From assembly GCA_049968235.1 (NCBI GenBank), contig JBMFRC010000002.1, positions 32,001-96,000 on the forward strand: DNA of 64,000 nt, in the 5' to 3' direction. Under the pieces are notes generated by a model. It was not told the origin of the DNA. It saw nothing but the letters and a program-made list of their open reading frames with translations, and did no database searches. The position numbers and the translations under genes are program-made. The DNA is from Candidatus Hydrogenedens sp. Its GTDB lineage: Bacteria > Hydrogenedentota > Hydrogenedentia > Hydrogenedentales > Hydrogenedentaceae. Below, in pieces: positions 18,827-59,047 of the stretch; the stretch's first letter is position 1; each line of letters begins with the position of its first letter.

Positions 18827-18830
18827 GAAA

Positions 18831-20117: not shown

Positions 20118-20174
20118 CATTTACGATATAATTCTTTTAAAATTAAACGAATATAAATATAAAAGGAGAATCAT

Positions 20175-21629: not shown

Positions 21630-21634
21630 GAATT

Positions 21635-22435
21635 ATGAGTGGATTACATCCGGCGATACTTGCTTTAATCGCAACACTATTTACATGGTTCATGACATTG
21701 TTAGGGGCTTTGCCTGCTTTGTGGTCAAAGCCCATACCTCAAAGAATCCTTGATGGAACATTAGGAATGGCAGCAGGAGTCATGATTGCAGCATCCTTCT
21801 GGTCATTATTGGAACCTGCAATCGAGATGAGTAAAGAAATGGATATACCTTCATGGTTACCTGCTGTTATTGGCTTTTTATTAGGAGGTATTGCCCTATG
21901 GGCTATGGACAAGATACTCCCCCATTTACATCAAGGATTATCTATTGAAAATGCGGAAGGTATTCATACGAACTGGAAAAGAAGCACCCTTCTGGTAATG
22001 GCTATTACCCTACATAATATCCCCGAGGGATTAGCAGTTGGTGTTGCTTTCGGAGCCACAGCATACGGTATTCCGGGCGCATCCTTAACCGGGGCTATTG
22101 TTCTGGCTATCGGTATCGGTTTGCAAAATCTACCTGAAGGCACTGCCGTAGCATTACCCCTTCGTCGTGAAGGATTTTCCCCATGGAAAAGTTTCTTTGT
22201 GGGACAACTTTCCGGTATTGTTGAACCAATTGCTGGAGTAATAGGTGCTCTTGCTGTTTTAGTGGCAAGACCTATTTTACCATTTGCTTTAGCCTTTGCT
22301 GCAGGGGCTATGATTTTTGTCGTAGCAGAAGAATTAATTCCTGAATCACAAAAAGAAGGCGATACTGATTTGCCCACTGTAGGGGTTATGTTTGGTTTTG
22401 CCCTCATGATGTTTTTGGATGTAGCGTTGGGATAA
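21635..22435 (+). CDS. ZIP family metal cation transporter (ZupT-like)
   Basis: ITLHNIPEGLAVG and GIGLQNLPEG are the ZIP signature HNxPEG motifs. Eight predicted TM segments. Confidence 0.85.
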   Translation: MSGLHPAILALIATLFTWFMTLLGALPALWSKPIPQRILDGTLGMAAGVMIAASFWSLLEPAIEMSKEMDIPSWLPAVIGFLLGGIALWAMDKILPHLHQGLSIENAEGIHTNWKRSTLLVMAITLHNIPEGLAVGVAFGATAYGIPGASLTGAIVLAIGIGLQNLPEGTAVALPLRREGFSPWKSFFVGQLSGIVEPIAGVIGALAVLVARPILPFALAFAAGAMIFVVAEELIPESQKEGDTDLPTVGVMFGFALMMFLDVALG

Positions 22436-22441
22436 CAATAT

Positions 22442-23428
22442 ATGAGCGAGAACACATTTAAAATTTTCGTTACACGCAATCTCCCCGAAAGAGGTTTAAT
22501 TTTACTCTATCAGAACTTCGGTGAAGAAAACATACAAATATATCCTGGTGAAACACCCATTCCTTATGAAGAATTATTGGCAAAGGTTAAAGGAATAGAT
22601 GCCCTTTTGTGTTTGCTCACAGATAAAATAGATGTGAGAATTATGGAACAGGCAGGACCCCAGTTAAAAATAATTGCAAATTATGCAGTTGGATATGATA
22701 ACATAGACATAGGTGAAGCAACGAAAAGGAAAATTGTCGTGACCAACACTCCCGGGGTTTTAACAGAAACAACAGCCGATTTAGCATGGGCACTTTTAAT
22801 GGCATCTGCACGCCGATTGGGAGAAGGGGAGCGATTGGTTCGTGCATCACAATGGGCAGGTTGGAACCCGACATTACTTTTAGGTATGGATATTCACGGG
22901 AAAACATTGGGTATCTTTGGTATGGGGAGAATCGGTCAGGCAGTAGCAAGAAGGGCTACAGGTTTCAATATGCGTGTTATTTATTACGATGTAACCGAAC
23001 CAAAACTACCTGAAGATATTAAAGCGACTCCTGTAGATAAAGAAACTCTATTAAAAGAATCTGATTTTATATCTATCCATTGTCCTCTGACGCGAAGCAC
23101 TTACCATGCTTTCGGAATCGATGAATTTAAGAAAATGAAACGGACCGCATGTATAATAAATACATCCCGGGGTCCTGTTATTGACGAAGAAGCATTGGCT
23201 CAGGCTCTTAAAGAAGGCTTCATATTCTCTGCGGGATTAGATGTCTTTGAAAAAGAACCCGAAATTCATCCCGATTTACTAAATTGTCCCAATGCTATTT
23301 TAATACCTCATTTAGGAAGTGCGTCGGTTGAAACCCGCTCCCGTATGGCGGAGATTGCTGCACAAAATATTATTGCTCGTCTTAACGGGGAAAAACCACC
23401 CAACCCAGTAAATCCTGAAGTTCTTTAA
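22442..23428 (+). CDS. D-isomer-specific 2-hydroxyacid dehydrogenase (glyoxylate/hydroxypyruvate reductase-like)
   Basis: GKTLGIFGMGRIGQAVARRA NAD motif and the catalytic triad region NTSRGPVID...IPHLGSA. Confidence 0.85.
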   Translation: MSENTFKIFVTRNLPERGLILLYQNFGEENIQIYPGETPIPYEELLAKVKGIDALLCLLTDKIDVRIMEQAGPQLKIIANYAVGYDNIDIGEATKRKIVVTNTPGVLTETTADLAWALLMASARRLGEGERLVRASQWAGWNPTLLLGMDIHGKTLGIFGMGRIGQAVARRATGFNMRVIYYDVTEPKLPEDIKATPVDKETLLKESDFISIHCPLTRSTYHAFGIDEFKKMKRTACIINTSRGPVIDEEALAQALKEGFIFSAGLDVFEKEPEIHPDLLNCPNAILIPHLGSASVETRSRMAEIAAQNIIARLNGEKPPNPVNPEVL

Positions 23429-23452
23429 TCACTCTTATGAGCGGGAAATTAA

Positions 23453-24373
23453 TTACATCTCTCGATATCGGAAAAATACCCACAGAACCCCTACCGCAGA
23501 GATAACACACAAAACAACAATTAAGTAGAATATATGAGGATGATGTTGCGCTGGAATGGGGACATTCATTGAAAACAAACTTACAATAAATGTTGGGACC
23601 ATCAATGCTATCGTAATAATGTTCAACAATTTCATCAATACATTTAAATTATTACTTACGATAGAAGCCCGTGCATCCATCAAGTTTGATAATACTGTGG
23701 AATGGATATCTGCCACACGAAAACATTGGTCATTCTCAATAATTAAATCATCCAAAAATTCCTTTCCTTCCTCACTTAAACCTATCTTATCCGCGCCTGC
23801 ACGGAGTTTTGCGAGAATAAGTCCATTTCCGTGAATAGCATTTAAGTAATAAACCAAACTTTTTTCTAACGCAAATAGATTGATGAGGAATTTATTTTCC
23901 AGTGAACGATTTATCCGATATTCAACCTCTTCTGCAACCATATTTATAACTTTAAGGTGTTCAATGAAATGGGAGATACAATTATATACAACACGAAGTA
24001 TTATATCGGGTGCTGACGATAACCCTGCTTGTAGTTTATTAGAAAATAATGGTGTATCCTCACTGGAAATAATAATAACTCTGTCCTTAAATAAAAATAA
24101 ACCTATAGAAATGACTTTAAAATGATATTCATCTTCAGCGGAATAATTTTTAGGTTTTTTCACAATAAATGCTACATGGTCTTGTTCATATTCAACACGG
24201 GCAAGTTCGTCAGGGTCCAATGCGGAGTTTAGGGTGTGCTCGTCAATCTGGAGTTTATCTATAAGTATTTTTTTCTCGTCTATACTCGGCTTAATATATA
24301 CTTCAATTACAGCCCCTTTTTCTTCAGGGACTTCTACAATCTTACCTTGATGAATTTTGTAAAATCTCCGCAT
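23453..24373 (-). CDS. corA: Magnesium/cobalt transporter CorA family
   Basis: Two C-terminal TM helices with LFSMNVPIP in the position of the YGMNF motif. CorA-like length of 306 aa. Confidence 0.7.
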   Translation of the reverse strand: MRRFYKIHQGKIVEVPEEKGAVIEVYIKPSIDEKKILIDKLQIDEHTLNSALDPDELARVEYEQDHVAFIVKKPKNYSAEDEYHFKVISIGLFLFKDRVIIISSEDTPLFSNKLQAGLSSAPDIILRVVYNCISHFIEHLKVINMVAEEVEYRINRSLENKFLINLFALEKSLVYYLNAIHGNGLILAKLRAGADKIGLSEEGKEFLDDLIIENDQCFRVADIHSTVLSNLMDARASIVSNNLNVLMKLLNIITIALMVPTFIVSLFSMNVPIPAQHHPHIFYLIVVLCVISAVGVLWVFFRYREM

Positions 24374-45852: not shown

Positions 45853-47985
45853 ATGCTTGTAAATATTTTATTACTATTAAACACACTTATTCATGGTACT
45901 AATATCTGGATAGAACCGTCGTGGGTATCTACCAACCTTCCCCAACCATCTCCCAATTCTCATTATGAAGCACAAATTTTTTCTGCAAAAGGCGAAGCAG
46001 AATCTATTCATGTCCATATCGTTGCCGATAAAGACGACCTGAATAATTTATCCTGTGTTTTTGATAAAATGCCTGAAAATTTCCCCAATCCATTGTTATA
46101 CCAGGTATTACCTATACAGGGAGTTCCTCTTCCACAGGGGGGTATGGACCGAAGTCTTATATTTTTAGATATTCTAAAACCTTTCCAACCATTTAATCTC
46201 CTAAAAGGGCAAAAAGCAGTCTTCTGGATAACATTTCAAACCCCACGAACCATAAAAACAGGAATATATAAGACAGAATTGCAAATTAATGTGGAAGAAA
46301 AGAAACTGAAACGTATTCCTATTACCATTGAGGTTTTTGATTTTGAAATTCCGCGAACACCTTCTCTACCTGCTATTAGTTTTTTGGATTGGCAAATATT
46401 ACTACGAACAAATCCTCAATCTAAGTTATCCGATGATTTCTGGAAAAATCTTTTTAATTTTGTATATGACAAACGGCTTCAACTTTCATTAGGATCCTAT
46501 CTACAAAATCTCAACACGGATACTTTCACTATTCCTGAAAATTTGTGGAGAAACTATGTTAATTATATAAAAGAATACCATTCGCAGAATATCATAGACA
46601 TAACACCTCTACTATTACCTCCGGGTCCTCTGGAAACCGTTCGCACACTTTCAAAAAATGAAGAAAATATGATAAATGACATAAGGGGTATAAATAATGT
46701 CGCTATGGGAGCCCTTTTTTTTATGCCAAAAGATACCGGAGAAAATGACGCTTTACGACGATATTTAAGTTCCCTTTCCGAACAACTTCCTCTTGTCACA
46801 AGGATTTTTTGTGGTATTCCCTTACCCCAGTTTAATTTTTTTACAGACATCTGGGCTTTGCCTTTTTCTTCATTTGCCCCGGGATTAATGGAACGATTCG
46901 CAAAAGGTCTATCTATTGCAGATGAAATTACGTTTCCTATTAAGTCTATTTCTTCTTCCACTACCGGATTCATTCCCGGTTCTTATCCTCCTATTTTAAG
47001 TTCTCCATGGCAAGCCATAGATGCATGTATCTATACGGGATGGCTATCCTACCCGGCAGAAAAAGAGGGCAAAAAGGAATGGATAGAGATACAATTGAAA
47101 GAAAAAGTAATTGGTAATAAAATAGCCATTATTTGGGGTCCTGCCCAAATTCCCCAATCTATCGATATTCTAACTTCAAGAGATGGTATTCACTTTCTAA
47201 CATCCTCCGTAAATTGGAAACATATATCAGGGACTCTTTTTGACCCTGCTATATCATACGGAACTTTTAAATACAATCCCGACTTTTCTGCTATCCGTTT
47301 TGAATTTTCCCGAATTAAGAAAGGTGAATTTGTATATATTAAAGAGATACGGCTAAACCCAGATGAACAGAGTAAAGAACCTCGCACGGCTCCTGTAATT
47401 ACCCCGTGGTTATGGATTAATCCAGAGCAATATCCCTCACTTCGCTATGATTCCGCATCCATAGAACCCCGTATTATTCCATGGATATGCTGGAATTATG
47501 GCTTTAGAGGTATTATTCTCACTCCTCTGATTTCATGGGGCAATATTGTTACAAGACCCCAAAACATGGAAACTTTCCTATTTCAACCTCAAGACACATT
47601 ACAAATGTCTACTTTGCTTTATCCTGCAAAAGATACCTATCTACACTCTATTCGTTTAGAACGGCTCCGTGATGGATTGGAAGATTTTGAATATCTATTA
47701 CTTCTCGCTCAAAAAGCACAATCCCAAAAAATAATTAATAAAGAATGCTACAATTATCTAACTATGCAACTTGAAAAATTTGTTCCATGGAATGTTGTTC
47801 AGGAGGATTTTGCAAAAGAATTGATGATGAAAAGACTTTCTATTGGATATGAATTAAGCAACAGAGAATCCCCTTATAAACACGAAAAAAAAGAATTCTC
47901 ACCTAAAAAAGACAACGGAGAAATGGTTCGCATTTCCCCAAAAGTACAAAAAAACTTTTCTATCCGTCAAAAAACCACAGAATAA
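45853..47985 (+). CDS. Hypothetical secreted protein with an F5/8 type C (discoidin)-like domain; possibly DUF4091 glycoside-hydrolase-like
   Basis: Signal peptide. The segment WQAIDACIYTGWLSYPAEKEGKKEWIEIQLKEKVIGNKIAIIWG...SRDGIHF fits a discoidin beta-sandwich. N-terminal YEAQIFSAKGEAESIHVHIV resembles DUF4091 starts. Function unknown. Confidence 0.45.
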   Translation: MLVNILLLLNTLIHGTNIWIEPSWVSTNLPQPSPNSHYEAQIFSAKGEAESIHVHIVADKDDLNNLSCVFDKMPENFPNPLLYQVLPIQGVPLPQGGMDRSLIFLDILKPFQPFNLLKGQKAVFWITFQTPRTIKTGIYKTELQINVEEKKLKRIPITIEVFDFEIPRTPSLPAISFLDWQILLRTNPQSKLSDDFWKNLFNFVYDKRLQLSLGSYLQNLNTDTFTIPENLWRNYVNYIKEYHSQNIIDITPLLLPPGPLETVRTLSKNEENMINDIRGINNVAMGALFFMPKDTGENDALRRYLSSLSEQLPLVTRIFCGIPLPQFNFFTDIWALPFSSFAPGLMERFAKGLSIADEITFPIKSISSSTTGFIPGSYPPILSSPWQAIDACIYTGWLSYPAEKEGKKEWIEIQLKEKVIGNKIAIIWGPAQIPQSIDILTSRDGIHFLTSSVNWKHISGTLFDPAISYGTFKYNPDFSAIRFEFSRIKKGEFVYIKEIRLNPDEQSKEPRTAPVITPWLWINPEQYPSLRYDSASIEPRIIPWICWNYGFRGIILTPLISWGNIVTRPQNMETFLFQPQDTLQMSTLLYPAKDTYLHSIRLERLRDGLEDFEYLLLLAQKAQSQKIINKECYNYLTMQLEKFVPWNVVQEDFAKELMMKRLSIGYELSNRESPYKHEKKEFSPKKDNGEMVRISPKVQKNFSIRQKTTE

Positions 47986-47999: not shown

Positions 48000-49112
48000 T
48001 TATTCCAAATTCATTTCCAACTGTAAATTTGTCCCTGTCTTTACCCAGGCATTTGTTACGATGACTTTTGTATTTCCCTCTCCTCTTGTCCGAACCAGCA
48101 ACGAAGAACGAGGTTCCAATCGGTATGTTCCTCCTGCCACAGGACCTATTAGTTTCAATGACCATGGGATATCCGATACATTTTCTATTTGCATTTGTCC
48201 TTCTTTCTTTTTGGGATTGGTTATCCGTATTTTTCCGAAATGGACACAGGAAAGAAATAACTTTGAAACCCATTCTTCCCTGCCATTAATCAAATCCGCT
48301 ATCCATACAACAGTCCGTTTATTGTCTAAGGCTTCACGAATTCCCTGCTCTGTTTTTTCCTTAGCAAACACTAAAGTCATGGGTCTTTGAAATTTATCCA
48401 ATTGAAATTCTCCCATAATTAACCCATGCAAGTCACTGTTACCCATCATTGTAAGGTTATTTTCCAAAGCCCAATCTATTACATGCGGATACCAATCCGA
48501 ACCATTGGATATTTCCACTCCGTGCAGGTACCCTTTTTCTAACAATTTCTTCTGAAATTTAAATTGATTCCTGGTTGCAGAATTCCAATCCGGATGATTC
48601 CATTGAATAAAAGCGCCCTGTTTAACTGCATTCTCAATTGCTGTAAATGGGTCTTCATTATCAACAAGGTTTACATCTTTCAGAAATAAAGCATTATAAT
48701 GTCCATAAGGTTCGTCGCGTGTGATTTCCCCACCTTTGATTAAAATAATTCCATACCATTCTCCCGCACTTTGTGCTACTTCATACGATGAATTATCATC
48801 TCCCGTTAAAAATGGTCTGGACCTACCGTTTTCTATATGGTCTGTAATAGCAATCGCATCTAAACCTGTTGCCCACGCTTCTATAACCCGTAAATCGGGC
48901 CAAACACGACCATCAGAAAAAACGGTATGCATATGGAAATCACATTTTAATGTTATAAATTCCTCTACATTAGGAACCATCACCTCGTGTCGAATTATAG
49001 GTCGTTCCAACTGTGTAATAGTGATAGGAGAGATATTGGCCGCAAAAATCATTAACGACATCGTTACAAGAAAAATTACCAAAATAGCTATTTGCTTTAC
49101 CTGTTTAATCAT
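48000..49112 (-). CDS. PHP domain-containing metal-dependent phosphoesterase with an N-terminal TM/signal
   Basis: CDFHMHTVFSDGRVWPDLRVIEAWATGLDAIAITDHIE is the PHP His-cluster motif. Confidence 0.65.
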   Translation of the reverse strand: MIKQVKQIAILVIFLVTMSLMIFAANISPITITQLERPIIRHEVMVPNVEEFITLKCDFHMHTVFSDGRVWPDLRVIEAWATGLDAIAITDHIENGRSRPFLTGDDNSSYEVAQSAGEWYGIILIKGGEITRDEPYGHYNALFLKDVNLVDNEDPFTAIENAVKQGAFIQWNHPDWNSATRNQFKFQKKLLEKGYLHGVEISNGSDWYPHVIDWALENNLTMMGNSDLHGLIMGEFQLDKFQRPMTLVFAKEKTEQGIREALDNKRTVVWIADLINGREEWVSKLFLSCVHFGKIRITNPKKKEGQMQIENVSDIPWSLKLIGPVAGGTYRLEPRSSLLVRTRGEGNTKVIVTNAWVKTGTNLQLEMNLE

Positions 49113-49321: not shown

Positions 49322-51058
49322 TCAATTCTTCGTATACCTTAAAAGACTACCTGCACTTAATCCTTTCTGAAAAACTCCTTCTCTGACAACCCGTTTTCCA
49401 TTAATAATTACCTCATCCACCCCGGATGGCGATTCTTTCGGCGACTTAAAACATGCTTTTGAATCTATCTTATCCATATCAATTACAAGCACATCTGCGT
49501 AATATCCCTCTTTAAGCAGTCCACGCTGCTTTAAGTTAAAATGTTCTGCCGACAATGATGTGCATTTACGAACAGCCGTTTCTATGTCCACCAGTTTTAA
49601 TTCTTTACAATACCGGCGCAAATATCGTGGATAGCAACCGTAAAACAAAGGCGACGGCATACCGAAGCCCATCAATATTGCATCTGTGGAAATCATTACC
49701 TTTGGATGTGCCATTGAAGGGAAAGTTGTGCGTTCTGTAAATAAATCATCTGGTTCCGTAATACTTTCAAACACGAGCACATGCCCTTCCTCTTCAAGCA
49801 GTAAATCGCAGGCAGTATCAAATGGATGCTGTTTCCGTTCTCTTGCAATTTCTATAAGATTCATACCTTCATATCGTTTGTTCTTTTTAGATTGAACTGC
49901 CATTATGTGTGCACATTCCCAACCCATAAGACAGAATAAGTTCAATGTCCACGAATCGGGACCTGTATGTGGCCACTCCATTTTACCGTGTTCGATACTA
50001 TTTAACATTTTCTTTCTCAAATCATGGTCTTTTAACCGATTCAGAACCTGTGTCCTATCTCCTTCTAAAGCCCATGGCGGGAAAAACGCTAAAAGATGGG
50101 TAAAACCAGTTGTCGTTGGCATAACATCCACACTTATATCAATTCCTTTCTCTTGATTCCCCACAATCCTTTCGATGGCTTGTTCAATAGGTTTCCCTAA
50201 TGGAACAGGAATAGGCATCCATTGGGCTAAACTTGCCATCATACGAATTAATGACCGAACAAAGGGACCCATAAACCCCATATCCGGCACCCAGAATAAA
50301 TGAGAAACCTGAGCCCTTATCTGATTTTCACACGCAACAGTTGCTACCTCATCTATCGCTTTATCCAAAGTATTACTATAACTCCGCAAATGACTTGTGA
50401 AAATCCCTTCATACTTCTTCAGAACTTTTCCAAGTTCCACCAATTCTCGCGTATCACTTTGACTACCCGGATAATATTGCAGTCCTGTGGACATACCTAT
50501 GCCACCTGCATCCATAGATGCTTCTAAGGCTCCTGCCATTTTCTGTATCTCTTCATCTGTAGCATATCGGTTTTCGGTACCAACCCCATGTAGTCTTAGT
50601 AACCCATGAGGTATTAAAATAGCTGTATTCAGTGGAATACCTTTATGCTCTAAAAAATCAAAATACTCACTCGTGGTTCGCCATTGGAATTCCTTTTCCG
50701 GGTCAAAACTGGAAAAAACCTCAATATATGTAAATATAGCTTCCTTCCCAGACTCCAATACAGGAGAAAGACCCATTCCACAATTTCCACCGACAAAAGT
50801 AGTAATCCCTTGTTTAATTAATGGCATTAGCAATTCTTCTGCGTTCTCTTTGTGCAAACTTATATCTGCATGAGAATGAGGGTCTATAAAGCCAGGACAG
50901 ACCATCCTTCCCTTAGCATCAATTTCCTCCTTCGCCTCTGCTTCTTTCAAGTTACCGATAGCAACGATTTTACCTTGTTCAATTGCAAGGTCGCCGGCAT
51001 ATGCCTTTTCTCCACTACCATCTACAATTTTCCCATTCCGAATAAGAACATCAAACAT
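49322..51058 (-). CDS. N-acyl-D-amino-acid deacylase (D-aminoacylase), amidohydrolase family
   Basis: MFDVLIRNGKIVDGSG...GFIDPHSHAD metal-binding start and the amidohydrolase_3 layout. Length 578 aa. Confidence 0.78.
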   Translation of the reverse strand: MFDVLIRNGKIVDGSGEKAYAGDLAIEQGKIVAIGNLKEAEAKEEIDAKGRMVCPGFIDPHSHADISLHKENAEELLMPLIKQGITTFVGGNCGMGLSPVLESGKEAIFTYIEVFSSFDPEKEFQWRTTSEYFDFLEHKGIPLNTAILIPHGLLRLHGVGTENRYATDEEIQKMAGALEASMDAGGIGMSTGLQYYPGSQSDTRELVELGKVLKKYEGIFTSHLRSYSNTLDKAIDEVATVACENQIRAQVSHLFWVPDMGFMGPFVRSLIRMMASLAQWMPIPVPLGKPIEQAIERIVGNQEKGIDISVDVMPTTTGFTHLLAFFPPWALEGDRTQVLNRLKDHDLRKKMLNSIEHGKMEWPHTGPDSWTLNLFCLMGWECAHIMAVQSKKNKRYEGMNLIEIARERKQHPFDTACDLLLEEEGHVLVFESITEPDDLFTERTTFPSMAHPKVMISTDAILMGFGMPSPLFYGCYPRYLRRYCKELKLVDIETAVRKCTSLSAEHFNLKQRGLLKEGYYADVLVIDMDKIDSKACFKSPKESPSGVDEVIINGKRVVREGVFQKGLSAGSLLRYTKN

Positions 51059-51139
51059 AACTTCTTCCTTCTCTCTTCACTAAAATAAACGGGGAAAGAT
51101 TCCTTTCCCCGCACTGTGTTGAATATTGTCTTGATATTT

Positions 51140-54100
51140 TTAATTTGCCGGACCTACACCAAAGCCATCTTCTCCAACAGAATCGATATGATAACCGCCA
51201 GCATTAAAGAATTGAATTAATCGCAATAATTCAGTAAAGTCTATTTTCCAATTCTTAGGATTATAATCGGATGTGTGATAATTACAACTATGATTTACCC
51301 CATCACCAACATCATATCCATCTTCTGTAGATGTCGATACATCCGCACAGTGATATCCGAATGAATTAAAGAACTGAATTACACGCAATAACTCACGGAG
51401 TTCTATCTTCCAATTCCCGTTTACATCCGCACTATGTCGGGAAGGAGGTTCTCCTTCAGATACACCTTCTACAGTTCCTTCTCCCTCAGGCACACCTTCA
51501 GGACTTCCTTCTTCATTCGAAATCACAGTTGCAACCACAGGATAGACGAGCATATTGGGTCCACCTGTAAACGATACAATAGCAAGGTATTCCCCTGAAG
51601 AAAGGTCATTTGCACAGAATCTCACAACTATGGACTGGCTTTCTCCCGGAGCAAGATTATAATTATAATCAGAGGTAATTTGGAACACATCTGCTGATAA
51701 CTCTGGAGCACTTATTATCGCATTTCCTATCAAAGCAGATGTACTCAATTCAGAATTCATTATAGCAAATGTCCCTTCCACGCACTCACCCGCATTTACC
51801 TCACCTAGATCCAATACATAAGGATTAATAACTGGAACAACAATACTTTGTTCCCCCTCAGTTACTCCTTCGGGTTCGATAGGAAGAAACATTGCTTTTA
51901 GAACTGTATTTTGACTAATACTGAATGTTACAGGATTAGCTGTCCCAGCAAACTGCCCATTAATCGTCCAGCCCTGCCAGATATCTTTCGACGAATTATA
52001 AGTAGCCTGTGCGGTTACTGTGGTTCCAAAATAATAATACCCGGGCTGTAAACCTTCACTACTTTCAGGTGATACCTGAACTGAAACAGGAGCGGTATTC
52101 CCCTCTGTTACCACAGATAATTGATACATCGGTAAAATCTCACCTTCATTTGTCTCACTAAAGCATGGAGCACCACAGCCACCTCCATTACTCTTTGCCG
52201 TTGGGTCAACTGCAGAAACTACAAAGGTGATAATACTTTCTCCACTTTCATTGAAGGTAGCATTATATTCCGCTAAATTACAAACCCTATCTCCATCCGC
52301 ATCACCAAACGCACCTAAATACTGACTTGCAGAAGTATCCACCTGGTTTACTATGAAAGATATCCCTACCTGTCCTGCTATTTGAGAAAGCATTGATAAT
52401 GAAATACCTTCTCCCAATGTGGCTATTCCTGTAAATAATGCCTTCAACTGATTTACATCCACTTTTGATAAAATATTTTGAGGGATTACTCCCTGTGATA
52501 CCGCAGTATCAATTATATTCGTAAACAAGGCATAATTGCTTTGCCATGCAGACAATACACAACAACGGTTCTGAACACCCGGGTTCGCCAATATAATATC
52601 CAGAAGTTGCAATTGAGCAGACTCCACCATTTGATTACCATCGAAATCTGTTGTAATCGAATTAATACTCATCATTGAACAATATGCTTCCCACGCATTC
52701 CGGGCATTCCCTTGAACTCCAATATTACCACATGAGGTAATAGCACACGGTACTGGACAACCTTCAGGAATTTCTCCTTCACCCTCTACAATACCTTCAG
52801 TAGATCCTTCAGCGGAACCTTCTCCTTCAAAATTACCTTCGGGGAGCCCTTCAACAGTTCCCTCAGGTTCAATACACGGAGCATAACGGGACAGGTCACT
52901 TTCCTTATATTCAGAAGGAACTCCCTTTCCTGCTGAAATACCTGCTAATCCATCATACGCTTCTATATTTAACCACGTTATCGCAATCCGACCATCAAAG
53001 AACATCTCTATCTGGAAACTGGCTGTATCATTTGTAAAGTTACCATCAACCTTAACCTCATGATAGGTCACAACGAAACGGTCATCCAACTGCTTCCACC
53101 AGATTTGTCCGCCATCATTCGGTTTCAGATTATCAAACAGACCTGAAACACGCGGTATACGGAAATGATTTTCCGGTGATTCCTTATTCTCGGTATCCCC
53201 TTCTGTAAACGTTAAATAACCATTACTACCTATAAATACACGGTCATAAGCCACTCCATAAAGAATAACCTGTTTCCCGTCTGCCAGAGGTACCTCGACA
53301 TAGGCATCATCACCTAAACTGACCGGTGTTGAAAGTATCGAATCTACCGGGTAATCTGTAATCCCCGTAATAGTGCATGCAAAATAACCGTTAGCATTAT
53401 TCGCCGGAGTTAAAAGTAACCGTTTATTATCCAAGTCATTGTCAACAACAAAGTCTTCTGTAAACCAATCCGTTGCAGGTTGAGAGGGTGGACCGGAGGT
53501 AAAATTCACCTCACAAGGACGGAATTCTAAATCTAAGGGTCCGTTAAACGGGGACCAGGGTATCGTCATAATGGGTAAATCCCACCGACCTCCAAAAATA
53601 CTAATAAATACATTCGGATAAAACTTAACCGTTAAAATAAGGTTACAAATTTCATTATAGTTCATCACAGAGCGATAGCCATCTTCACCTACTTGTACGG
53701 GTACGGATTGTCCCTCCTCCCAGAATAATAAACCTTCCTGTAAACTTATAGTATCACATTCCAGGGAACCATTTGCATCCGCTGAAACATCAATACCTGC
53801 CCCTGATGAAAAAGGAATCCACTTTAACCAGTCCGGTAAAGTAACACCTACTAAGTTCAATATTACTTTTACAAGGTCCACATCAAACAAATGCGTTTTA
53901 GGTGTATTATCTTGAATCGTAGAGGCAGTATCTAACAAAAAACTATTAAAATAATCATATGCAGTTGTACGAAATTCCACATCAGGAATGTAAGGAACAT
54001 CTACTGTAAACGGAGGAATAATTCCTATATCAAACCCCGCTTTCATGAGCAATTCCGCTCCGAAATCATACCCCCAGAAGCCACTGGCATTACCTGCTGT

Positions 54101-54943
54101 TAACCATGGCGGATTTAAATGGAAAAAGCCCTGCACATCCGCCTGGTAATTAGCAACTGCTGCAGCGCGAATACGCACCTGAACTGGAAATCCTCCCGGA
54201 TTTTCCTCAAATCCACCCTCTCCTTTACCATTAGGCCACCAGCCTGAATCAAAACTTAGGTTTAACCCTTTCATTGGTGCGGTAAACTGGACAGGTTGCG
54301 TTTCTACTGCTTTACCTAAGTCTCCCTTTACATCAACCTTAACTATCTCTTCAACACCACCTGTAACAGTATATTCTGTATTAATTGATTTCATACCCGA
54401 ACAGGGTTCTAACACTTGTACAATAACTCCAGACTTCCCATCCTGTTGATAATCCCAGCGAATTAAAACGGGACGAACCCCATTTTCCGAATAAATCTCT
54501 TTCCTCTGCTCTACATATAAAAGTTTATCTTTCAAAAAACATTTCGTCTCACTTACACCTTCATTCCCTTTCGTTTGAACAATAGACCATTCTAAAGAAA
54601 TGTTTTCTAATTGCAATCGAAAATTCTTGCTACCATCGTTTGACATTATCTTTTCCGTCTTATCAAAATATTTCTCTAATAATGCACGATTCATTGAAGT
54701 AAAGCCAGGAAAGCCAACTCCTTGTTTACCGAATTGCATTATACTTCGACGAACAACGCCATCTTCGCTGAATTCCACATATTCCAGAGAACCCTCTTCT
54801 CTTGCTAACAACTGAAGTTTTGCATCAGGAGGAATATTATCTCCTTCCCAGCGTGCTGAATATACCCAGTATGATTCTGTAAAACCAACAGCAGAAATAC
54901 ATACAATAAGAATTAATGCAAACATTAACTTCTTGTATTCCAT
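51140..54943 (-). CDS. Giant secreted multidomain protein (1267 aa) with Glu/Gly-rich linkers and two C-terminal dockerin-like repeats
   Basis: Signal peptide. EG-rich linkers EGTVEGLPEGNFEGEGSAEGSTEGIVEGEGEIPEG and EGSPEGVPEGEGTVEGVSEGEP. C-terminal repeats DVNGNWKIELRELLRVIQFFNSFGYH and NPKNWKIDFTELLRLIQFFNAGGYH. An internal D-x-D-G-D site, GDADGDRVCNLAEY. Confidence 0.6.
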   Translation of the reverse strand: MEYKKLMFALILIVCISAVGFTESYWVYSARWEGDNIPPDAKLQLLAREEGSLEYVEFSEDGVVRRSIMQFGKQGVGFPGFTSMNRALLEKYFDKTEKIMSNDGSKNFRLQLENISLEWSIVQTKGNEGVSETKCFLKDKLLYVEQRKEIYSENGVRPVLIRWDYQQDGKSGVIVQVLEPCSGMKSINTEYTVTGGVEEIVKVDVKGDLGKAVETQPVQFTAPMKGLNLSFDSGWWPNGKGEGGFEENPGGFPVQVRIRAAAVANYQADVQGFFHLNPPWLTAGNASGFWGYDFGAELLMKAGFDIGIIPPFTVDVPYIPDVEFRTTAYDYFNSFLLDTASTIQDNTPKTHLFDVDLVKVILNLVGVTLPDWLKWIPFSSGAGIDVSADANGSLECDTISLQEGLLFWEEGQSVPVQVGEDGYRSVMNYNEICNLILTVKFYPNVFISIFGGRWDLPIMTIPWSPFNGPLDLEFRPCEVNFTSGPPSQPATDWFTEDFVVDNDLDNKRLLLTPANNANGYFACTITGITDYPVDSILSTPVSLGDDAYVEVPLADGKQVILYGVAYDRVFIGSNGYLTFTEGDTENKESPENHFRIPRVSGLFDNLKPNDGGQIWWKQLDDRFVVTYHEVKVDGNFTNDTASFQIEMFFDGRIAITWLNIEAYDGLAGISAGKGVPSEYKESDLSRYAPCIEPEGTVEGLPEGNFEGEGSAEGSTEGIVEGEGEIPEGCPVPCAITSCGNIGVQGNARNAWEAYCSMMSINSITTDFDGNQMVESAQLQLLDIILANPGVQNRCCVLSAWQSNYALFTNIIDTAVSQGVIPQNILSKVDVNQLKALFTGIATLGEGISLSMLSQIAGQVGISFIVNQVDTSASQYLGAFGDADGDRVCNLAEYNATFNESGESIITFVVSAVDPTAKSNGGGCGAPCFSETNEGEILPMYQLSVVTEGNTAPVSVQVSPESSEGLQPGYYYFGTTVTAQATYNSSKDIWQGWTINGQFAGTANPVTFSISQNTVLKAMFLPIEPEGVTEGEQSIVVPVINPYVLDLGEVNAGECVEGTFAIMNSELSTSALIGNAIISAPELSADVFQITSDYNYNLAPGESQSIVVRFCANDLSSGEYLAIVSFTGGPNMLVYPVVATVISNEEGSPEGVPEGEGTVEGVSEGEPPSRHSADVNGNWKIELRELLRVIQFFNSFGYHCADVSTSTEDGYDVGDGVNHSCNYHTSDYNPKNWKIDFTELLRLIQFFNAGGYHIDSVGEDGFGVGPAN

Positions 54944-55165
54944 TGCAACTCTCCTTTATATTTTTTATTGATTTGTATTAAATTTCTTAATCCCTCAAAC
55001 ATAATTCTAAAACCACAAAACCATAAATACCATAAAAATTGACCTTTTATATAATCTTACCATTATTTTATACAAATTTCAATTTTTTTATGACAAATTT
55101 TTATTTTGATAAAAGAATAAAATAAGGTGTATGATAAATTAAACAGAAAAAGAAGGAGTACTGCA

Positions 55166-55498
55166 ATGATTAAAGATAGAATTGTTCGTATAAAGATGAA
55201 AAAGAATTTCAAGGAACAAAAGCCCTTTTCTTTCGTTGGGAAAATAACCCTCTGGTCTGAAAATTGGATAGCCTTAGAAGGAAAAGGAATTATGTTAACC
55301 CGTCAGCAGTCCAGTGGGGTACAAATAGATGAAGGAATTAAAGTTCTTTTAATCCCTCGTGAAAGCATTGACCATATACAGGTATTGCCAGATAATTTTG
55401 ATATAACCCAATTAAAAGTTACCACTGAAGGACAACAATTAGTTTTAGTAATTGATGGGAAACGCGATTCTATCCTTGGAGAAATGGGAGAAGGATAA
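55166..55498 (+). CDS. Hypothetical small protein (111 aa from the ATG with an AAGGAG RBS; the ORF track starts at a GTG at 55127)
   Basis: AAGGAG lies 7 nt upstream of the ATG at 55166. No recognisable motif. Divergent from the large secreted gene. Confidence 0.4.
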   Translation: MIKDRIVRIKMKKNFKEQKPFSFVGKITLWSENWIALEGKGIMLTRQQSSGVQIDEGIKVLLIPRESIDHIQVLPDNFDITQLKVTTEGQQLVLVIDGKRDSILGEMGEG

Positions 55499-56209: not shown

Positions 56210-59047
56210 ATGAATTTTATAGTCTTCATTCCGTTGCTACTTCATCTCCTTCATTTCCCACAAATAAACAATCCTTTTGAAAATGCACATTTAATCATAG
56301 ACCCACGTATGAAAGATGTTATCCCTAATAACAATTTCATGACGAACACAAAAAATGACTGGATAAAAGACAGTCCCCACCAGATACATACACTATTCAG
56401 AAAAATTTTTGTTGTTGAAAAATTTCCTAAATTGGCAGAGATATATATTACTGCAGATGACTATTTTAAACTCTATATAAATGGTGAACATATTTTAGAA
56501 GGTCCAACAAACGGTTATCCTTTTGCCTACCCTTATTTTAAGTTTAACCTGACCCCATTCATTAGGACAGGGACAAATATACTGGCTATTCACACATATT
56601 ACAGAGGGTTAATAAATCGTGTTTGTGTCAGTGGTGATAATCGTTCCGGGCTTATCTTGAAACTTATACTTACCGATATGGAGGGACGAAAAACAGAGAT
56701 TGTATCTGATACAACATGGAAATGCTTCCCTCTGGATGCATTTATTACGACTGACACTATAGGTTATAAAACACAATTCATTGAGAATATAGATATGCTA
56801 AAATACCCAAAAGACTGGCAATCCCTTGATTTCGATGATAGCCACTGGATAAACCCCGAATTAGGAAAAAGTGACTACACTTTTGTTGACTTACCTGCAA
56901 AACCATTAGAAATAAAAAATGTTTTCCCCAAAGAAAAGAAAAAAATTAATTCAGGACATTTCATTTTTGATTTCGGTCGCGAAGTCGTTGGATACACGAG
57001 AATAAAAACTAGGGGTGAAAGAGGACAAAAAATGATAGTTTATCATGGGGAAGAACTGGATGAAAACGGATATGTCCGCTGGCAAATGCGAGCATACTGT
57101 GATTACAAAGAAGAAATCATTTTATCCGGTGAAGAAGATATTTCTCCTTTCTATGAATACCGTGCCTTTCGATATATTGAATTGGATAATGCTCCCGAAG
57201 AAACCTCCGTATGGGTTGAAGAACGCCATTACCCATTTGACACCACAAAAGTTCTCTTTTATTCTTCAGATAAGGATTTAACAAATATATGGGATATTTG
57301 TCAATTGGGAGTTCGACTTTGCTCGCAAGAAGGCTTTTTGGATTGTCCTTCCCGTGAAAAAGGACAATATTTAGGAGATGCAGTTATTACATCTCGTTCC
57401 TTTATGTGGCTTACAGGAGATACTTCATTAACAAAAAAATCATTAATAGATTTTTCTCTTTCAACAAAAATAGATCCTGGTCTAACAGCGGTTGCACCTT
57501 CCGGGTTTATTCAAGAACTTGCCGAATACTCCCTTCAATATCCATTAATGCTATGGGAATACTATCGTCATTCCGGTGACAAAGATTTTCTAAAAGCAAT
57601 GGCAACAGAATGTTTACCATCACTCCTATACTATTTTGCACAGTTTGAAAATGAATCCGGCTTATTAAACTCTACCGGGAAAAAACCTATTTTGATTGAT
57701 TGGCCCAAAAACCTTCGTGATAATTTCGATTATGATTATGCCCAGAACAAACCTAATGCGGTCGTTAATGCTTTTTATTACGGAGCCGTTACAACAACAC
57801 TGGAAATACAAAAGACGCTCGGCATAGAAGACACTGCACTCAAAGAAAAAGCAGAAAAAATATGGAATGGCTATCAAAAAATCTTTCTGGACTCTGAAAA
57901 GAAACTTTATAAAGATGCTCCAAACTCGAAACATTATGCTCTGCATAGCAATGCTCTACCTCTCTACTTTGGATTGGTAAAAGATGAAAAAGTAAAAGAA
58001 AATATTTTCTCTTTAATTGAACAAAAAGGACTTTACTGTGGTGTTTATATCGCATCTTACATCATTGAAGCATGCTTCAAAGAAGGAAATCCCGAATTAG
58101 GATGGAAACTATTAACAAACAACACAGAATATTCATGGAAGGAAATGCTTCGCAATGGGGCTACTTCCTGCCTTGAAGTGTGGAAACCCGAAATGAAATC
58201 AAATATGAGTTGGTGTCATGCATGGAGTAGTTGCCCTATTTATCTCTTATCGGAATATGTATTAGGTCTAAAAATCGGCAAACCCGGCTGGGAAGAAATC
58301 CACTTCTCCCCAGCAAAAATAAACGATTTACCCGATATGTTTCTCATTAAACCCTTACCTGATGGAGGTTATTGCTCTGTGAATATAAAAAACAATAACT
58401 ATAACCTGACCGTTCCTGAGAATATTCATGTAATAACAGATGGTGTGCAGTGTGGAAATATTTCTGTTCATACTGTTTTATCTCACCAAAGTCCGACAGA
58501 ACTATCCGAAGAAGAAAAGACACTACTGAAAAATTATCAGTGGGACATAAAGACAGAAAACACTCGAGGAATTTGGGTTTCTATCAAAAAACAAAAATTA
58601 TATGTAATTGAAAAAAACAAAGTAGTATGGCAAACTCTTTGTTCCACTGGGATAAAAGGAATAGGTGAAAAATTAGGTTCCGAACAAACCCCCAGAGGGT
58701 GGCATCAAATTGTTGAAAAAATTGGTGACAATGCCCCATGGGGACAAATCTTTCGCAATCGTCAACCCGTAGGGATATGGGATAAAAGTCAGATTACAGA
58801 TGAATCCCTTGTCCTAACTCGAATACTGCGTCTTGATGGCTTGGAAGAAACAAAGAATAAAGGTATTAATAACGAAGGAGAAATTGTAGATTCGTATCAA
58901 CGATTCATTTACATTCATGGCACCAATAAAGAAGAACTTATAGGCACTCCTTTTACACGTGGTTGTATCGGTCTAACTAATAATGATGTGATTATGCTCT
59001 ACAACATTGTTCCCCTCAACACGAAAGTTCTTATTACAGAAGAATAA
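56210..59047 (+). CDS. Fusion protein: GH78-like alpha-L-rhamnosidase (six-hairpin glycosidase) region plus a C-terminal L,D-transpeptidase (YkuD) domain
   Basis: N-domain AEIYITADDYFKLYINGEHI matches the rhamnosidase N-terminal beta-sandwich. DCPSREKGQYLGDA matches the GH78 DCPxRE...GD block. The C-terminus from about 58550 carries the YkuD motif TPRGWH...IYIHGTNKEELIGTPFTRGCIGLTNNDVIMLYNIVPLNTKVLI. Confidence 0.65.
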   Translation: MNFIVFIPLLLHLLHFPQINNPFENAHLIIDPRMKDVIPNNNFMTNTKNDWIKDSPHQIHTLFRKIFVVEKFPKLAEIYITADDYFKLYINGEHILEGPTNGYPFAYPYFKFNLTPFIRTGTNILAIHTYYRGLINRVCVSGDNRSGLILKLILTDMEGRKTEIVSDTTWKCFPLDAFITTDTIGYKTQFIENIDMLKYPKDWQSLDFDDSHWINPELGKSDYTFVDLPAKPLEIKNVFPKEKKKINSGHFIFDFGREVVGYTRIKTRGERGQKMIVYHGEELDENGYVRWQMRAYCDYKEEIILSGEEDISPFYEYRAFRYIELDNAPEETSVWVEERHYPFDTTKVLFYSSDKDLTNIWDICQLGVRLCSQEGFLDCPSREKGQYLGDAVITSRSFMWLTGDTSLTKKSLIDFSLSTKIDPGLTAVAPSGFIQELAEYSLQYPLMLWEYYRHSGDKDFLKAMATECLPSLLYYFAQFENESGLLNSTGKKPILIDWPKNLRDNFDYDYAQNKPNAVVNAFYYGAVTTTLEIQKTLGIEDTALKEKAEKIWNGYQKIFLDSEKKLYKDAPNSKHYALHSNALPLYFGLVKDEKVKENIFSLIEQKGLYCGVYIASYIIEACFKEGNPELGWKLLTNNTEYSWKEMLRNGATSCLEVWKPEMKSNMSWCHAWSSCPIYLLSEYVLGLKIGKPGWEEIHFSPAKINDLPDMFLIKPLPDGGYCSVNIKNNNYNLTVPENIHVITDGVQCGNISVHTVLSHQSPTELSEEEKTLLKNYQWDIKTENTRGIWVSIKKQKLYVIEKNKVVWQTLCSTGIKGIGEKLGSEQTPRGWHQIVEKIGDNAPWGQIFRNRQPVGIWDKSQITDESLVLTRILRLDGLEETKNKGINNEGEIVDSYQRFIYIHGTNKEELIGTPFTRGCIGLTNNDVIMLYNIVPLNTKVLITEE

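What the first reader, a model, noticed from the sequence alone, without database searches (positions are those of the whole stretch)
51140..54943. 1267-aa secreted giant with EG-repeat linkers and tandem dockerin-like C-terminal repeats
The C-terminal ~90 residues contain two copies of D/N-x-N-x-N-W-K-I-(E/D)-x-x-E-L-L-R-x-I-Q-F-F-N-x-x-G-Y-H. A Ca-loop followed by a helix matches dockerin/EF-hand layout, although the loop ligands are degenerate (Asn for Asp). A separate GDADGDRVCNLAEY site lies mid-protein. The linkers are highly acidic E-G-x repeats. The central region (...YDRVFIGSNGYLTFTEGD...IWWKQ...VVTYHEV...ASFQIEMFFDGRIAITW) looks like an extracellular beta-rich adhesion-type domain. 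The gene reads into a divergent promoter shared with a small unknown ORF. This could be a cell-surface scaffold or adhesin docking onto a partner module.
Basis: partly seen in the sequence, partly recalled or inferred. Interest (0 to 1): 0.55.

Follow-up and report, generated by a model that had tools for sequence, protein, structure and literature searches.

The report
Undescribed dockerin-like calcium tag on secreted protein
A large secreted protein of an uncultured Hydrogenedens bacterium ends in a 100-residue double calcium-loop module that folds like a dockerin, has no entry in Pfam or NCBIfam, and tags thousands of other secreted proteins, so it probably docks them onto an unknown partner.

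Summary
The ORF at 51140-54943 (-) encodes 1267 aa with a signal peptide, three acidic E/G linkers, a conserved mid-protein EF-hand loop and a duplicated C-terminal unit (z = 22.6 against shuffles).

The C-terminal ~100 aa is a discrete module.
- AlphaFold2 models it at pLDDT 95.8.
- Loop 1 is a canonical 12-residue EF-hand loop; loop 2 has a one-residue insertion.
- Two cysteine pairs covary as disulfides, and this protein keeps only the first.

The module has no Pfam or NCBIfam model, and I found no literature on it. It matches 3022 clusters among 1.84 billion representative proteins. It occurs many times per Hydrogenedentota genome and also in Kiritimatiellia and in archaeal membrane proteins. 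It lies at the extreme C-terminus in 90-94% of cases, behind very diverse surface-type domains.

Other domains:
- aa 485-690 is NIDO-like.
- aa 1033-1140 is a PapD/ASH-type Ig fold.
- aa 24-482 is unassigned.

My best reading is a calcium-dependent docking module that displays secreted proteins on an unidentified envelope partner. No cohesin or other partner was found, and docking is inferred rather than shown. I class it as a new variant of a known kind, of moderate interest.

The parts
51140..54943 (-). Whole gene, 1267 aa plus stop codon
   Evidence: Twelve full-length homologs at 49-88% identity. Synteny is conserved in GCA_036769585.1.
54878..54943 (-). Signal-peptide-like N-terminus (aa 1-22)
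   Evidence: K-rich n-region followed by a 16-residue hydrophobic stretch. Maximum 12-aa hydropathy 3.13.
54344..54874 (-). N-terminal alpha/beta domain (aa ~24-200), unassigned
   Evidence: AF2 pLDDT about 70-86 for aa 24-180. No Pfam, NCBIfam or PDB match. Shared with P0015.
53498..54298 (-). Beta-rich domain (aa 216-482), seen here only in the Hydrogenedentes-type homolog set. It holds most of the invariant columns (FTAP..FDSGWWP..).
   Evidence: Invariant columns in A2 and A4. Found only in P0013-15 and P0240-242. AF2 gives four ~24-residue strands at pLDDT 55-75. No family hit.
52874..53491 (-). NIDO-like extracellular domain (aa 485-690)
   Evidence: 38-51% identity over ~200 aa to P0243, P0244, P0246, P0252, P0274, P0278 and P0016. 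Of these, P0243, P0244, P0246 and P0252 were scanned and pass the Pfam NIDO threshold at 40-48 bits.
52763..52873 (-). Acidic E/G linker 1 (aa 691-727)
   Evidence: Weak 12-nt DNA tandem repeat at 52793-52822.
52163..52759 (-). Cys-rich, mainly helical domain (aa 729-927), unassigned
   Evidence: AF2 helices at aa ~747-876, pLDDT about 70-85. No family hit.
52265..52303 (-). Mid-protein EF-hand-type loop DADGDRVCNLAEY (aa 881-893)
   Evidence: Pattern match with 0.006 hits expected per shuffle. The ligand pattern is kept in all 12 full-length orthologs. The AF2 model is low-confidence here.
51884..52132 (-). Small beta domain (aa ~938-1020), unassigned
   Evidence: AF2 pLDDT about 75-87. By eye it resembles an InlB B-repeat, a domain common among other module-bearing proteins, but no HMM hit supports this.
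51848..51883 (-). Short E/G linker 2 (aa 1021-1032)
51524..51847 (-). PapD/ASH/HYDIN-type Ig-like domain (aa 1033-1140)
51443..51517 (-). Acidic E/G linker 3 (aa 1143-1167)
   Evidence: 30-nt DNA tandem repeat at 51449-51512.
51143..51442 (-). C-terminal double EF-hand, dockerin-like module (aa 1168-1267)
51299..51436 (-). Module repeat 1 (aa 1170-1215). Loop D1173-N1175-N1177-(K1179)-E1181-E1184, the helix ELLRVIQFFN, and a GYHC...TEDGY hairpin. Cys1199 pairs with Cys1220.
51149..51277 (-). Module repeat 2 (aa 1223-1265). A 13-residue loop variant D1226-Y-N-P-K-N1231-W1232-K-I-D1235-F-T-E1238, followed by a helix and a hairpin. The second Cys pair is replaced by D1254/G1262.
51089..51112 (-). 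Terminator-like hairpin just after the stop codon
   Evidence: 10-bp stem with 6 G-C pairs and a T-rich tail. This is a consensus match only.
55054..55082 (-). Candidate sigma-70-like promoter in the 183-bp divergent intergenic region
   Evidence: TTGAAA-17-TAAGAT preceded by TG. The number of such sites in the region does not exceed the shuffle expectation, so this is weak.

Best explanation
The gene encodes a Sec-exported, multi-domain surface or extracellular protein of a Candidatus Hydrogenedens bacterium.

Its body is a string of non-catalytic, binding-type domains: two orphan N-terminal domains, a NIDO-like domain, a Cys-rich helical domain with an EF-hand loop, a small beta domain and a PapD/ASH Ig domain. 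Flexible acidic E/G linkers join them.

Its last ~100 residues form a disulfide-braced double loop-helix module with a dockerin-like fold. The module belongs to a very large family that has no Pfam or NCBIfam model.

Most likely mechanism: once outside the cytoplasm, the module binds Ca2+ in one or both loops and acts as a docking handle. It tethers the protein, and dozens of other secreted proteins in the same genome, to a still unidentified receptor on the cell envelope. This would be analogous to a dockerin plugging into a cohesin.

Shown: the export signal, the module's fold class, conservation of the Ca ligands, covariation of the disulfide cysteines, and the module's promiscuous, mostly C-terminal distribution.

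Inferred: Ca2+ binding, docking, and the existence of a partner.
For: - Family-model matches. Of 77 members, 41 match EF-hand_6 (best E 4e-8) and 12 match Dockerin_1 (best E 4.4e-6). The family profile picks the fourth EF-hand of calmodulin and centrin as its best PDB matches, below threshold.
- Ca ligands, over 235 unique modules. Loop 1 has D1 100%, N/D3 94%, D/N5 98%, I/V8 99% and E12 100%. Loop 2 has D 100%, W 98% and E 100%.
- Disulfides. The first Cys pair is present in 230 of 235 modules. The second pair is both present in 193, both absent in 40, and single in 2. This implies disulfides and therefore an extracytoplasmic location.
- Spread. The family has 3022 clusters at E<=1e-3 and 1707 at E<=1e-30 among 1.84 billion representatives. 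At least 583 confirmed genomic copies were found. The best 80 loci come from 20 assemblies, with up to 16 from a single assembly.
- Position. The module lies within 10 aa of the C-terminus in 137 of 145 representatives and in 73 of 81 genomic ORFs.
- Linker. 83 of 145 representatives have an E/G-rich linker upstream of the module.
- Cargo. The attached domains are diverse surface-type domains and peptidases. 73 of 100 complete-looking cargo proteins have a signal-like N-terminus.
- Exceptions to the C-terminal position. N-terminal, internal and tandem copies exist. Archaeal type-I membrane proteins carry 2-3 copies in the ectodomain. This fits a binding module better than an export tag.
Against: - No partner, cohesin-like or otherwise, was identified. 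No conserved neighbouring gene appears in the 80 loci.
- hhalign against a Pfam-valid dockerin aligns only one loop-helix: 28 columns, probability 20%.
- This protein's module falls below the Pfam thresholds: EF-hand_6 15.6 against 25 bits, and Dockerin_1 12.7 against 22.9 bits.
- Position 6 of loop 1 is Trp rather than Gly, and loop 2 is non-canonical.
- Ca2+ binding is not tested.
- Roughly 460 residues of the body (aa 24-482) have no assignable fold, so the protein's own activity is unknown.
Confidence: 0.5

Rival explanations
1. The module is a folded C-terminal export or sorting domain. A lineage-specific outer-membrane secretion or attachment machinery would recognise it and possibly remove it. 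This would be functionally analogous to the type IX secretion C-terminal domain, rather than a permanent docking handle.
For: - The module is at the extreme C-terminus in 90-94% of occurrences.
- It sits on diverse cargo proteins, most of which have a signal-like N-terminus.
- It is strongly expanded in particular phyla.
- The Ig-like domain just upstream weakly resembles a 'choice-of-anchor' domain. By my own knowledge, that class of domain typically precedes sorting signals.
Against: - 6-10% of copies are N-terminal, internal or tandem.
- It occurs in the ectodomains of archaeal type-I membrane proteins, which have their own C-terminal transmembrane anchor and no outer membrane.
- There is no hit to any NCBIfam sorting-signal model.
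- There is no hydrophobic or basic tail.
- No secretion or sortase-like gene is linked in the window or in the syntenic locus.
Confidence: 0.2
2. The module binds a non-protein envelope or substrate ligand, such as a polysaccharide, lipopolysaccharide or S-layer glycan, in a Ca2+-dependent, lectin-like way. It would thereby anchor proteins to the cell wall or to polymeric substrates.
For: - Nearly invariant aromatic and His residues flank the loops: H1170, H1223, Y1227, W1232 (98%) and Y1251.
- The genome neighbourhood is rich in glycan-degrading genes: rhamnosidase, GH123-like, GH42 and sulfatase.
- No protein partner was found.
Against: - There is no structural or sequence similarity to any carbohydrate-binding module. 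The top structural hits are protein-binding dockerins.
- The cargo is mostly non-glycosidase.
Confidence: 0.15
3. The module is a homotypic association or purely structural Ca2+-stabilised cap. Modules would bind each other, so that multi-module proteins act as scaffolds, or they would simply stabilise the C-terminus against proteolysis. No dedicated receptor would exist.
For: - Proteins made of 2-4 tandem modules exist, some of them membrane-anchored: P0099, P0100, P0103, P0175, P0190 and P0095.
- The module has pseudo-twofold internal symmetry.
Against: - There is no direct evidence for self-association.
- Most carriers have a single copy (126 of 145; 82 of 83).
- A mere stabiliser would not be expected to hold the extreme C-terminus behind a long flexible linker so consistently.
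Confidence: 0.1

Closest known systems
Type I dockerin modules of cellulosomes (Pfam PF00404), including the non-cellulosomal dockerin-like modules reported across the three domains of life (Peer et al. 2009, cited from my own knowledge; that paper is not in the searchable library)
   Same: - A duplicated Ca-loop-plus-helix ('F-hand') unit with pseudo-twofold symmetry.
- Usually at the C-terminus behind a flexible linker.
- Attached to many different secreted proteins in one genome.
- Occasionally N-terminal, internal or repeated.
- Some family members reach Dockerin_1 at E 4e-6.
   Different: - About 95 aa instead of 60-70.
- Each repeat is extended by a GGYHC...TEDGYxPG beta-hairpin braced by a disulfide.
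- Loop position 12 is an invariant Glu.
- Loop 2 has a one-residue insertion with an invariant Trp.
- The linkers are acidic and E/G-rich rather than Pro/Thr-rich.
- This protein is below the Pfam threshold.
- No cohesin is known, and the hosts are Hydrogenedentota, Kiritimatiellia and archaea rather than cellulolytic Firmicutes.
EF-hand pair (calmodulin/centrin type; Pfam PF13405, PF00036, PF13499)
   Same: - The loop-1 consensus D-x-[ND]-x-[DN]-x-x-[IV]-[SND]-L-x-E is a canonical 12-residue EF-hand loop with a bidentate Glu at position 12.
- Two loops are paired in one small domain.
- The best sequence-profile matches in the PDB are the fourth EF-hands of calmodulin and centrin.
   Different: - No entering helix precedes loop 1 in the model.
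- Gly6 is not conserved, and this protein has Trp there.
- Loop 2 is non-canonical.
- The module is extracytoplasmic and disulfide-bonded.
- All matches are below the curated thresholds for this protein.
Type IX secretion C-terminal domain, and C-terminal sorting signals such as PEP-CTERM and LPXTG (functional analogues only)
   Same: - A lineage-enriched tag found at the C-terminus of dozens of otherwise unrelated secreted proteins per genome.
   Different: - A different fold: alpha/beta EF-hand pair rather than a beta-sandwich or a transmembrane helix.
- No hydrophobic tail.
- Not strictly C-terminal.
- Present in archaeal ectodomains.
- No NCBIfam sorting-signal model matches.
NIDO (nidogen-like) extracellular domain, Pfam PF06119 (for aa 485-690)
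   Same: - Clear homology (38-51% identity over ~200 aa) to bacterial domains. Four of these (P0243, P0244, P0246, P0252) were scanned and pass the NIDO gathering score.
- The motifs NGY(L/I)TF and FQ(I/V)E(M/L)F(F/Y)DG are shared.
   Different: - This copy itself does not reach the Pfam model.
- The function of NIDO is unknown even in animals.
- The bacterial homologs are mostly fused to peptidases (S8, C1, M4, C25, C11, S1), whereas no catalytic domain is detectable here.
PapD/ASH/MSP-type Ig-like domains (HYDIN_VesB_CFA65-like_Ig PF22544; NCBIfam choice-of-anchor D)
   Different: - Sequence scores are below the cut-offs: 15.4 against 25.5 bits, and 20.5 against 45 bits.

Membership tests
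Dockerin type I (PF00404) | Tandem duplication of a Ca-binding loop followed by a helix | tested here: met
   The two units align with z = 22.6. AF2 places loop then helix twice: H17-28 and H71-83.
Dockerin type I (PF00404) | Score at or above the Pfam gathering threshold (22.9 bits) | tested here: not met
   12.7 bits, E 0.15, covering one repeat only. 12 of 77 family members match at E<=1, best 4.4e-6.
Dockerin type I (PF00404) | Fold superposes on solved dockerins | tested here: inconclusive
Dockerin type I (PF00404) | Loop position 12 typically Asp (own knowledge of dockerin consensus) | tested here: not met
   Glu in 100% of 235 modules, in both loops.
Dockerin type I (PF00404) | A cohesin partner encoded in the same genome | not testable with these tools
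   Whole Hydrogenedentota genomes cannot be scanned for PF00963 here. No cohesin was seen in the window or in the 80 loci.
EF-hand (PF13405 / PF00036) | Canonical 12-residue loop with ligands at positions 1, 3, 5, 9 and 12 and a hydrophobic residue at 8 | tested here: met
   Loop 1 is D1173-V-N-G-N-W-K-I-E-L-R-E1184. It passes the pattern when position 6 is relaxed. Loop 2 does not fit because of its one-residue insertion.
EF-hand (PF13405 / PF00036) | Helix-loop-helix with an entering helix | tested here: not met
   The AF2 model has coil for residues 1-16 before loop 1.
EF-hand (PF13405 / PF00036) | Pfam gathering threshold (25 bits) | tested here: not met
   15.6 bits, E 0.013. 41 of 77 members match at E<=1, best 4e-8.
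EF-hand (PF13405 / PF00036) | Binds Ca2+ | not testable with these tools
   Needs biochemistry.
Known C-terminal sorting signals (PEP-CTERM, LPXTG, GlyGly-CTERM, T9SS CTD) | Match to a curated NCBIfam sorting-signal model | tested here: not met
   No hit for the module even at E<=10 or for the whole protein.
Known C-terminal sorting signals (PEP-CTERM, LPXTG, GlyGly-CTERM, T9SS CTD) | C-terminal hydrophobic helix plus basic tail (for the exosortase and sortase types) | tested here: not met
   The last 40 aa have a maximum hydropathy of 0.92, and the protein ends ...GEDGFGVGPAN.
Known C-terminal sorting signals (PEP-CTERM, LPXTG, GlyGly-CTERM, T9SS CTD) | Strictly C-terminal position | tested here: not met
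   8 of 145 representatives and 8 of 81 genomic ORFs carry it elsewhere. 19 of 145 representatives are multi-copy.
NIDO (PF06119), aa 485-690 | Pfam gathering threshold on this protein | tested here: not met
   No NIDO hit at E<=10 for aa 489-690.
NIDO (PF06119), aa 485-690 | Homology to proteins that pass the NIDO threshold, over the same segment | tested here: met
   P0243, P0244, P0246 and P0252 score 40-48 bits against a cut-off of 25. They align to aa 468-703 at 34-44% identity, with E from 1e-32 to 1e-47.
PapD/ASH Ig-like (PF22544), aa 1033-1140 | Fold match to solved ASH/PapD-like domains | tested here: met
PapD/ASH Ig-like (PF22544), aa 1033-1140 | Pfam gathering threshold (25.5 bits) | tested here: not met
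   15.4 bits. 3 of 16 homologs match at E<=0.05, best 3.3e-5.

The most novel reading that the evidence does not exclude
The ~95-aa double-EF-hand module defines a previously undescribed, cohesin-independent protein-display system. In Hydrogenedentota, and also in Kiritimatiellia and some archaea, dozens of secreted proteins per cell would be docked in a Ca2+-dependent way. The receptor would be either a novel envelope protein or membrane-anchored proteins built from tandem copies of the same module acting as scaffolds. This would be a cellulosome-like organising principle in uncultured phyla, serving general surface display rather than cellulose degradation.
Probability: 0.3. Interest if true: 0.75.

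Novelty: new variant of a known kind. Interest (0 to 1): 0.5.

Why it matters
Hydrogenedentota are uncultured and common in anaerobic digesters and sediments, and how they organise their cell surface is unknown.

A single module with no Pfam or NCBIfam model tags thousands of secreted proteins. It is so repetitive within genomes that many copies lie at contig ends.
- It is a strong candidate for the main surface-attachment device of this phylum.
- Recognising it would immediately mark thousands of 'hypothetical proteins' as secreted or surface-displayed.
- It explains some recurrent MAG fragmentation points.
- It offers a small, confidently modelled, disulfide-stabilised Ca-dependent binding module that can be expressed and used as bait to find its partner.
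- It bears on the long-open question of what non-cellulosomal dockerin-like modules do.

Tried and rejected
- Pfam and NCBIfam on the whole protein, on six separate segments and on all 16 homologs gave nothing above threshold.
- PDB sequence-profile searches gave only sub-threshold EF-hand hits for the module and nothing for the body.
- The afdb50 fold library was not available, so I could not get the taxonomic breadth or UniProt naming of the module.
- hhalign of the module profile against a Pfam-valid dockerin segment was weak: probability 20%, 28 columns.
- A search for a conserved neighbouring gene around 80 module-bearing loci found none. The largest 'cluster' was an artefact of off-frame translations of E/G linker DNA.
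- Literature searches for Hydrogenedentes or Kiritimatiellae with dockerin, for the motif strings (LLRVIQF, IQFFN and others) and for secretion-related terms returned nothing relevant.
- I considered an inverse-autotransporter or pore-forming reading of the long beta-strands at aa 253-457.
- I considered a lipoprotein. Cys15 is not conserved among orthologs and the lipobox is poor.
- The InlB B-repeat assignment for aa 938-1020 rests on my visual reading only and has no HMM support.

Full report
**1. The observation**

The minus-strand ORF at 51140-54943 encodes 1267 aa. An AAGGAG ribosome-binding site lies 7 nt upstream of the ATG. A terminator-like hairpin follows the stop codon directly, at 51112-51089. 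Together these make it a probable monocistronic unit. It is separated by 183 bp from a small divergent ORF.

The N-terminus (MEYKK followed by 16 hydrophobic residues) looks like a Sec signal peptide. The C-terminus has no hydrophobic stretch.

- Three acidic E/G linkers at aa 692-724, 1023-1034 and 1144-1167. They have no basic residues. Two of them show weak DNA-level tandem repeats.
- A mid-protein loop DADGDRVCNLAEY at aa 881-893. It fits the PROSITE-type EF-hand pattern, which I recalled from memory. The expectation is 0.006 matches per shuffled protein. The ligand pattern is kept in all 12 full-length orthologs.
- Two C-terminal copies of a loop + ELLRxIQFFN + GYH unit. Their local alignment score is 117 against 21 +/- 4 for shuffles, z = 22.6.

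**2. Source and relatives**

Two partial NCBI proteins from 'Candidatus Hydrogenedens sp.' are 100% identical to parts of this protein (P0241 and P0343). The best genomic match to the C-terminus is Ca. Hydrogenedens terephthalaticus at 91% (L003). The window therefore comes from a Hydrogenedens-type bacterium of the phylum Hydrogenedentota.

Twelve full-length homologs share 49-88% identity. In GCA_036769585.1 the gene order is conserved. It runs: rhamnosidase-YkuD fusion, EF-P, small ORF, this gene, amidohydrolase, a PHP-like protein, a GH123-like protein, a PAS histidine kinase. GH42 and sulfatase genes lie nearby. No secretion-system, sortase or cohesin-like gene is linked.

**3. The C-terminal module**

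*A large family.*
- Searching the last 102 aa alone recovered 78 proteins at E down to 1e-42. The named ones are mostly Hydrogenedentes, and two are labelled Kiritimatiellae/Kiritimatiellia. Many are short 'partial' fragments.
- A profile of these (alignment A1) was scored against 1.84 billion representative proteins. It found 3022 clusters at E<=1e-3 and 1707 at E<=1e-30.
The best 80 loci come from 20 assemblies, with 16, 13, 7, 7 and 7 loci from single assemblies.
- Many copies sit at contig ends. This is consistent with a repeat that breaks short-read assemblies.

*No existing model or description.* Neither Pfam nor NCBIfam has a model for the module. Text searches for the motif strings and for relevant keyword combinations found nothing.

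*Sequence-level similarity.*
- 41 of 77 members touch EF-hand_6 (best E 4e-8), 31 touch EF-hand_1 and 12 touch Dockerin_1 (best E 4.4e-6).
- The family profile's best PDB matches are the fourth EF-hands of calmodulin and centrin, at E about 0.05-0.1.
- hhalign against a Pfam-valid dockerin aligns just one loop-helix.

*Conservation over 235 unique modules.* The residue labels printed in that output are two too low. True numbers are used here.
- Loop 1 is D1173 (100%), x, N/D (94%), x, D/N (98%), x, x, I/V (99%), S/N/D, L, x, E1184 (100%). That is a canonical EF-hand loop with Glu at position 12. The unusual feature is a variable position 6, which is Trp in this protein.
- Loop 2 is D1226-Y-N-P-Q/K-D/N-W1232-x-I-x-L-S/T-E1238. 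It has a one-residue insertion and invariant D, W and E.
- Four cysteines behave as two disulfides. The first pair (C1199/C1220 here) is present in 230 of 235 modules. The second pair is both present in 193, both absent in 40 and single in only 2. This protein's clade has lost the second pair (D1254/G1262).
- Disulfides argue for an extracytoplasmic location.

**4. How the module is used**

*Position.* Among the 145 best representative carriers, 137 have the module within 10 residues of the C-terminus, 2 have it N-terminal and 6 internal, and 19 are multi-copy with up to four copies. Among genomic ORFs, 73 of 81 are C-terminal. Three of the rest carry it near the start of the reading frame.

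*Linker and export signal.* 83 of 145 carriers have an E/G-rich linker upstream. 73 of 100 complete-looking carriers have a signal-like N-terminus.

*Cargo.* The attached domains are very diverse and of the surface type: InlB-B-repeat-like, Ig-like, PASTA, LRR, CHRD, beta-helix/PMP, BACON, P-domain, and peptidases M14, C1 and M6. An FGE-sulfatase domain also occurs.

*Archaeal carriers.* Some carriers are type-I membrane proteins with 2-3 module copies in the ectodomain and their own C-terminal transmembrane helix (P0103, P0175, P0190). Two of them, P0175 and P0190, lie on contigs with archaeal markers, in the order TFIIE-alpha, rhomboid, SpoIIM.

*What this pattern implies.* Mostly C-terminal with regular exceptions, and present where there is no outer membrane, is how dockerins behave. 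Exosortase, sortase and T9SS signals do not behave this way.

**5. The rest of the protein**

- **aa 485-690: NIDO-like.** This segment is 34-51% identical over about 200 aa to a domain that is often tandemly repeated in Planctomycetota and other bacteria. Homologs in the same search carry it alongside many peptidase families. Four such homologs that I scanned pass the Pfam NIDO threshold at 40-48 bits. The window copy itself does not reach the model.
- **aa 24-200, 216-482, 729-927 and 938-1020: unassigned.** These are the N-terminal alpha/beta domain, the most conserved beta-rich domain (found only in the Hydrogenedentes-type homolog set), the Cys-rich helical domain holding the EF-hand loop, and a small beta domain. 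None has a detectable family.
- **Limits of the model.** The 1142-residue model is only moderately confident: mean pLDDT 59.7. Fold searches with it reported only the Ig domain. No catalytic domain is detectable.

**6. Interpretation**

The protein is best read as a secreted, non-enzymatic, binding-type surface protein. Its C-terminal module is a new, extended relative of the dockerin/EF-hand 'F-hand pair'.

The most likely mechanism has three steps:
1. Sec-dependent export.
2. Oxidative folding and Ca2+ loading of the module.
3. Docking onto an envelope receptor through the module, with the acidic linker acting as a flexible tether.

The first step rests on the signal-peptide-like N-terminus. 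The second and third are inferred from the fold, from conservation of the Ca ligands and the disulfide cysteines, and from how the module is distributed. Ca2+ binding, docking and the identity of the partner are not shown.

The rivals are a folded export or sorting domain, a Ca-dependent glycan-binding anchor, and a homotypic or purely stabilising module. The exceptions to the C-terminal position and the archaeal ectodomain copies weigh against the sorting-signal reading.

**7. Novelty and verdict**

The kind is known. Dockerin-like and EF-hand-like modules on secreted proteins occur outside cellulosomes too (own knowledge: Peer et al. 2009).

This family is structurally distinct:
- It is about 95 aa.
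- It has beta-hairpin and disulfide extensions.
- It has Glu at loop position 12.
- It has an inserted second loop with an invariant Trp.

It has no model in Pfam or NCBIfam and did not appear in the searchable literature. It is also very large and lineage-expanded. I rate it a new variant of a known kind, of moderate interest (0.5).

Noticed in passing
window 55166-55498 (+); listed by the ORF tool from GTG 55127: A small divergent ORF of 110 aa, counted from an ATG with an AAGGAG 8 nt upstream. It has no Pfam hit. It is conserved in the same position and orientation in GCA_036769585.1 (L001 9339-9671), between the large gene and efp.
   Followed up: partly
window 56210-59047 (+): An alpha-L-rhamnosidase (three rhamnosidase domains) is fused at its C-terminus to a YkuD L,D-transpeptidase domain (aa 787-942). 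This is an unusual combination, and it is conserved in the syntenic genome (L001 5782-8622).
   Followed up: no
L083 8001-9974 and L084 8001-10142: Archaeal-looking contigs (TFIIE-alpha, rhomboid, SpoIIM neighbours) encode type-I membrane proteins with 2-3 copies of the same module in the ectodomain. Cys-rich spacers separate the copies, and the proteins end in a transmembrane helix with a Lys-rich tail. L084 also has a 354-aa Dockerin_1 protein at 12852-13916.
   Followed up: partly
L003-L082 (many matches at locus or contig ends); P0241 and P0343: Module copies very often lie at contig ends. This gene itself is split into two 'partial' proteins in an NCBI Hydrogenedens MAG. The repeated module and linker DNA seem to break short-read assemblies.
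   Followed up: partly
L055 and 33 other loci: Off-frame or antisense translation of E/G-linker DNA gives long spurious 'LALAFTFALA...' ORFs. These cluster across loci and could be mistaken for a conserved membrane protein.
   Followed up: yes
window 45853-47985 (+): This 710-aa ORF has no Pfam hit at E<=1e-4 here. The 712-aa protein in the corresponding position of the syntenic locus L001 carries a precomputed GH123_N hit. The ORF is therefore probably a divergent GH123-like glycosidase.
   Followed up: no
window 48000-49112 (-): A 370-aa protein with a signal-like N-terminus and a PHP domain just below the Pfam threshold (25.1 against 26.4 bits). It lies downstream of the amidohydrolase and is conserved in synteny.
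   Followed up: no
window 50001-54000: GC content is 0.405-0.409 over the large gene. Most of the window is at 0.33-0.38, although 18001-24000 reaches 0.39-0.41. I guess, without testing it, that Gly/Glu/Ala-rich coding explains the gene's value.
   Followed up: no
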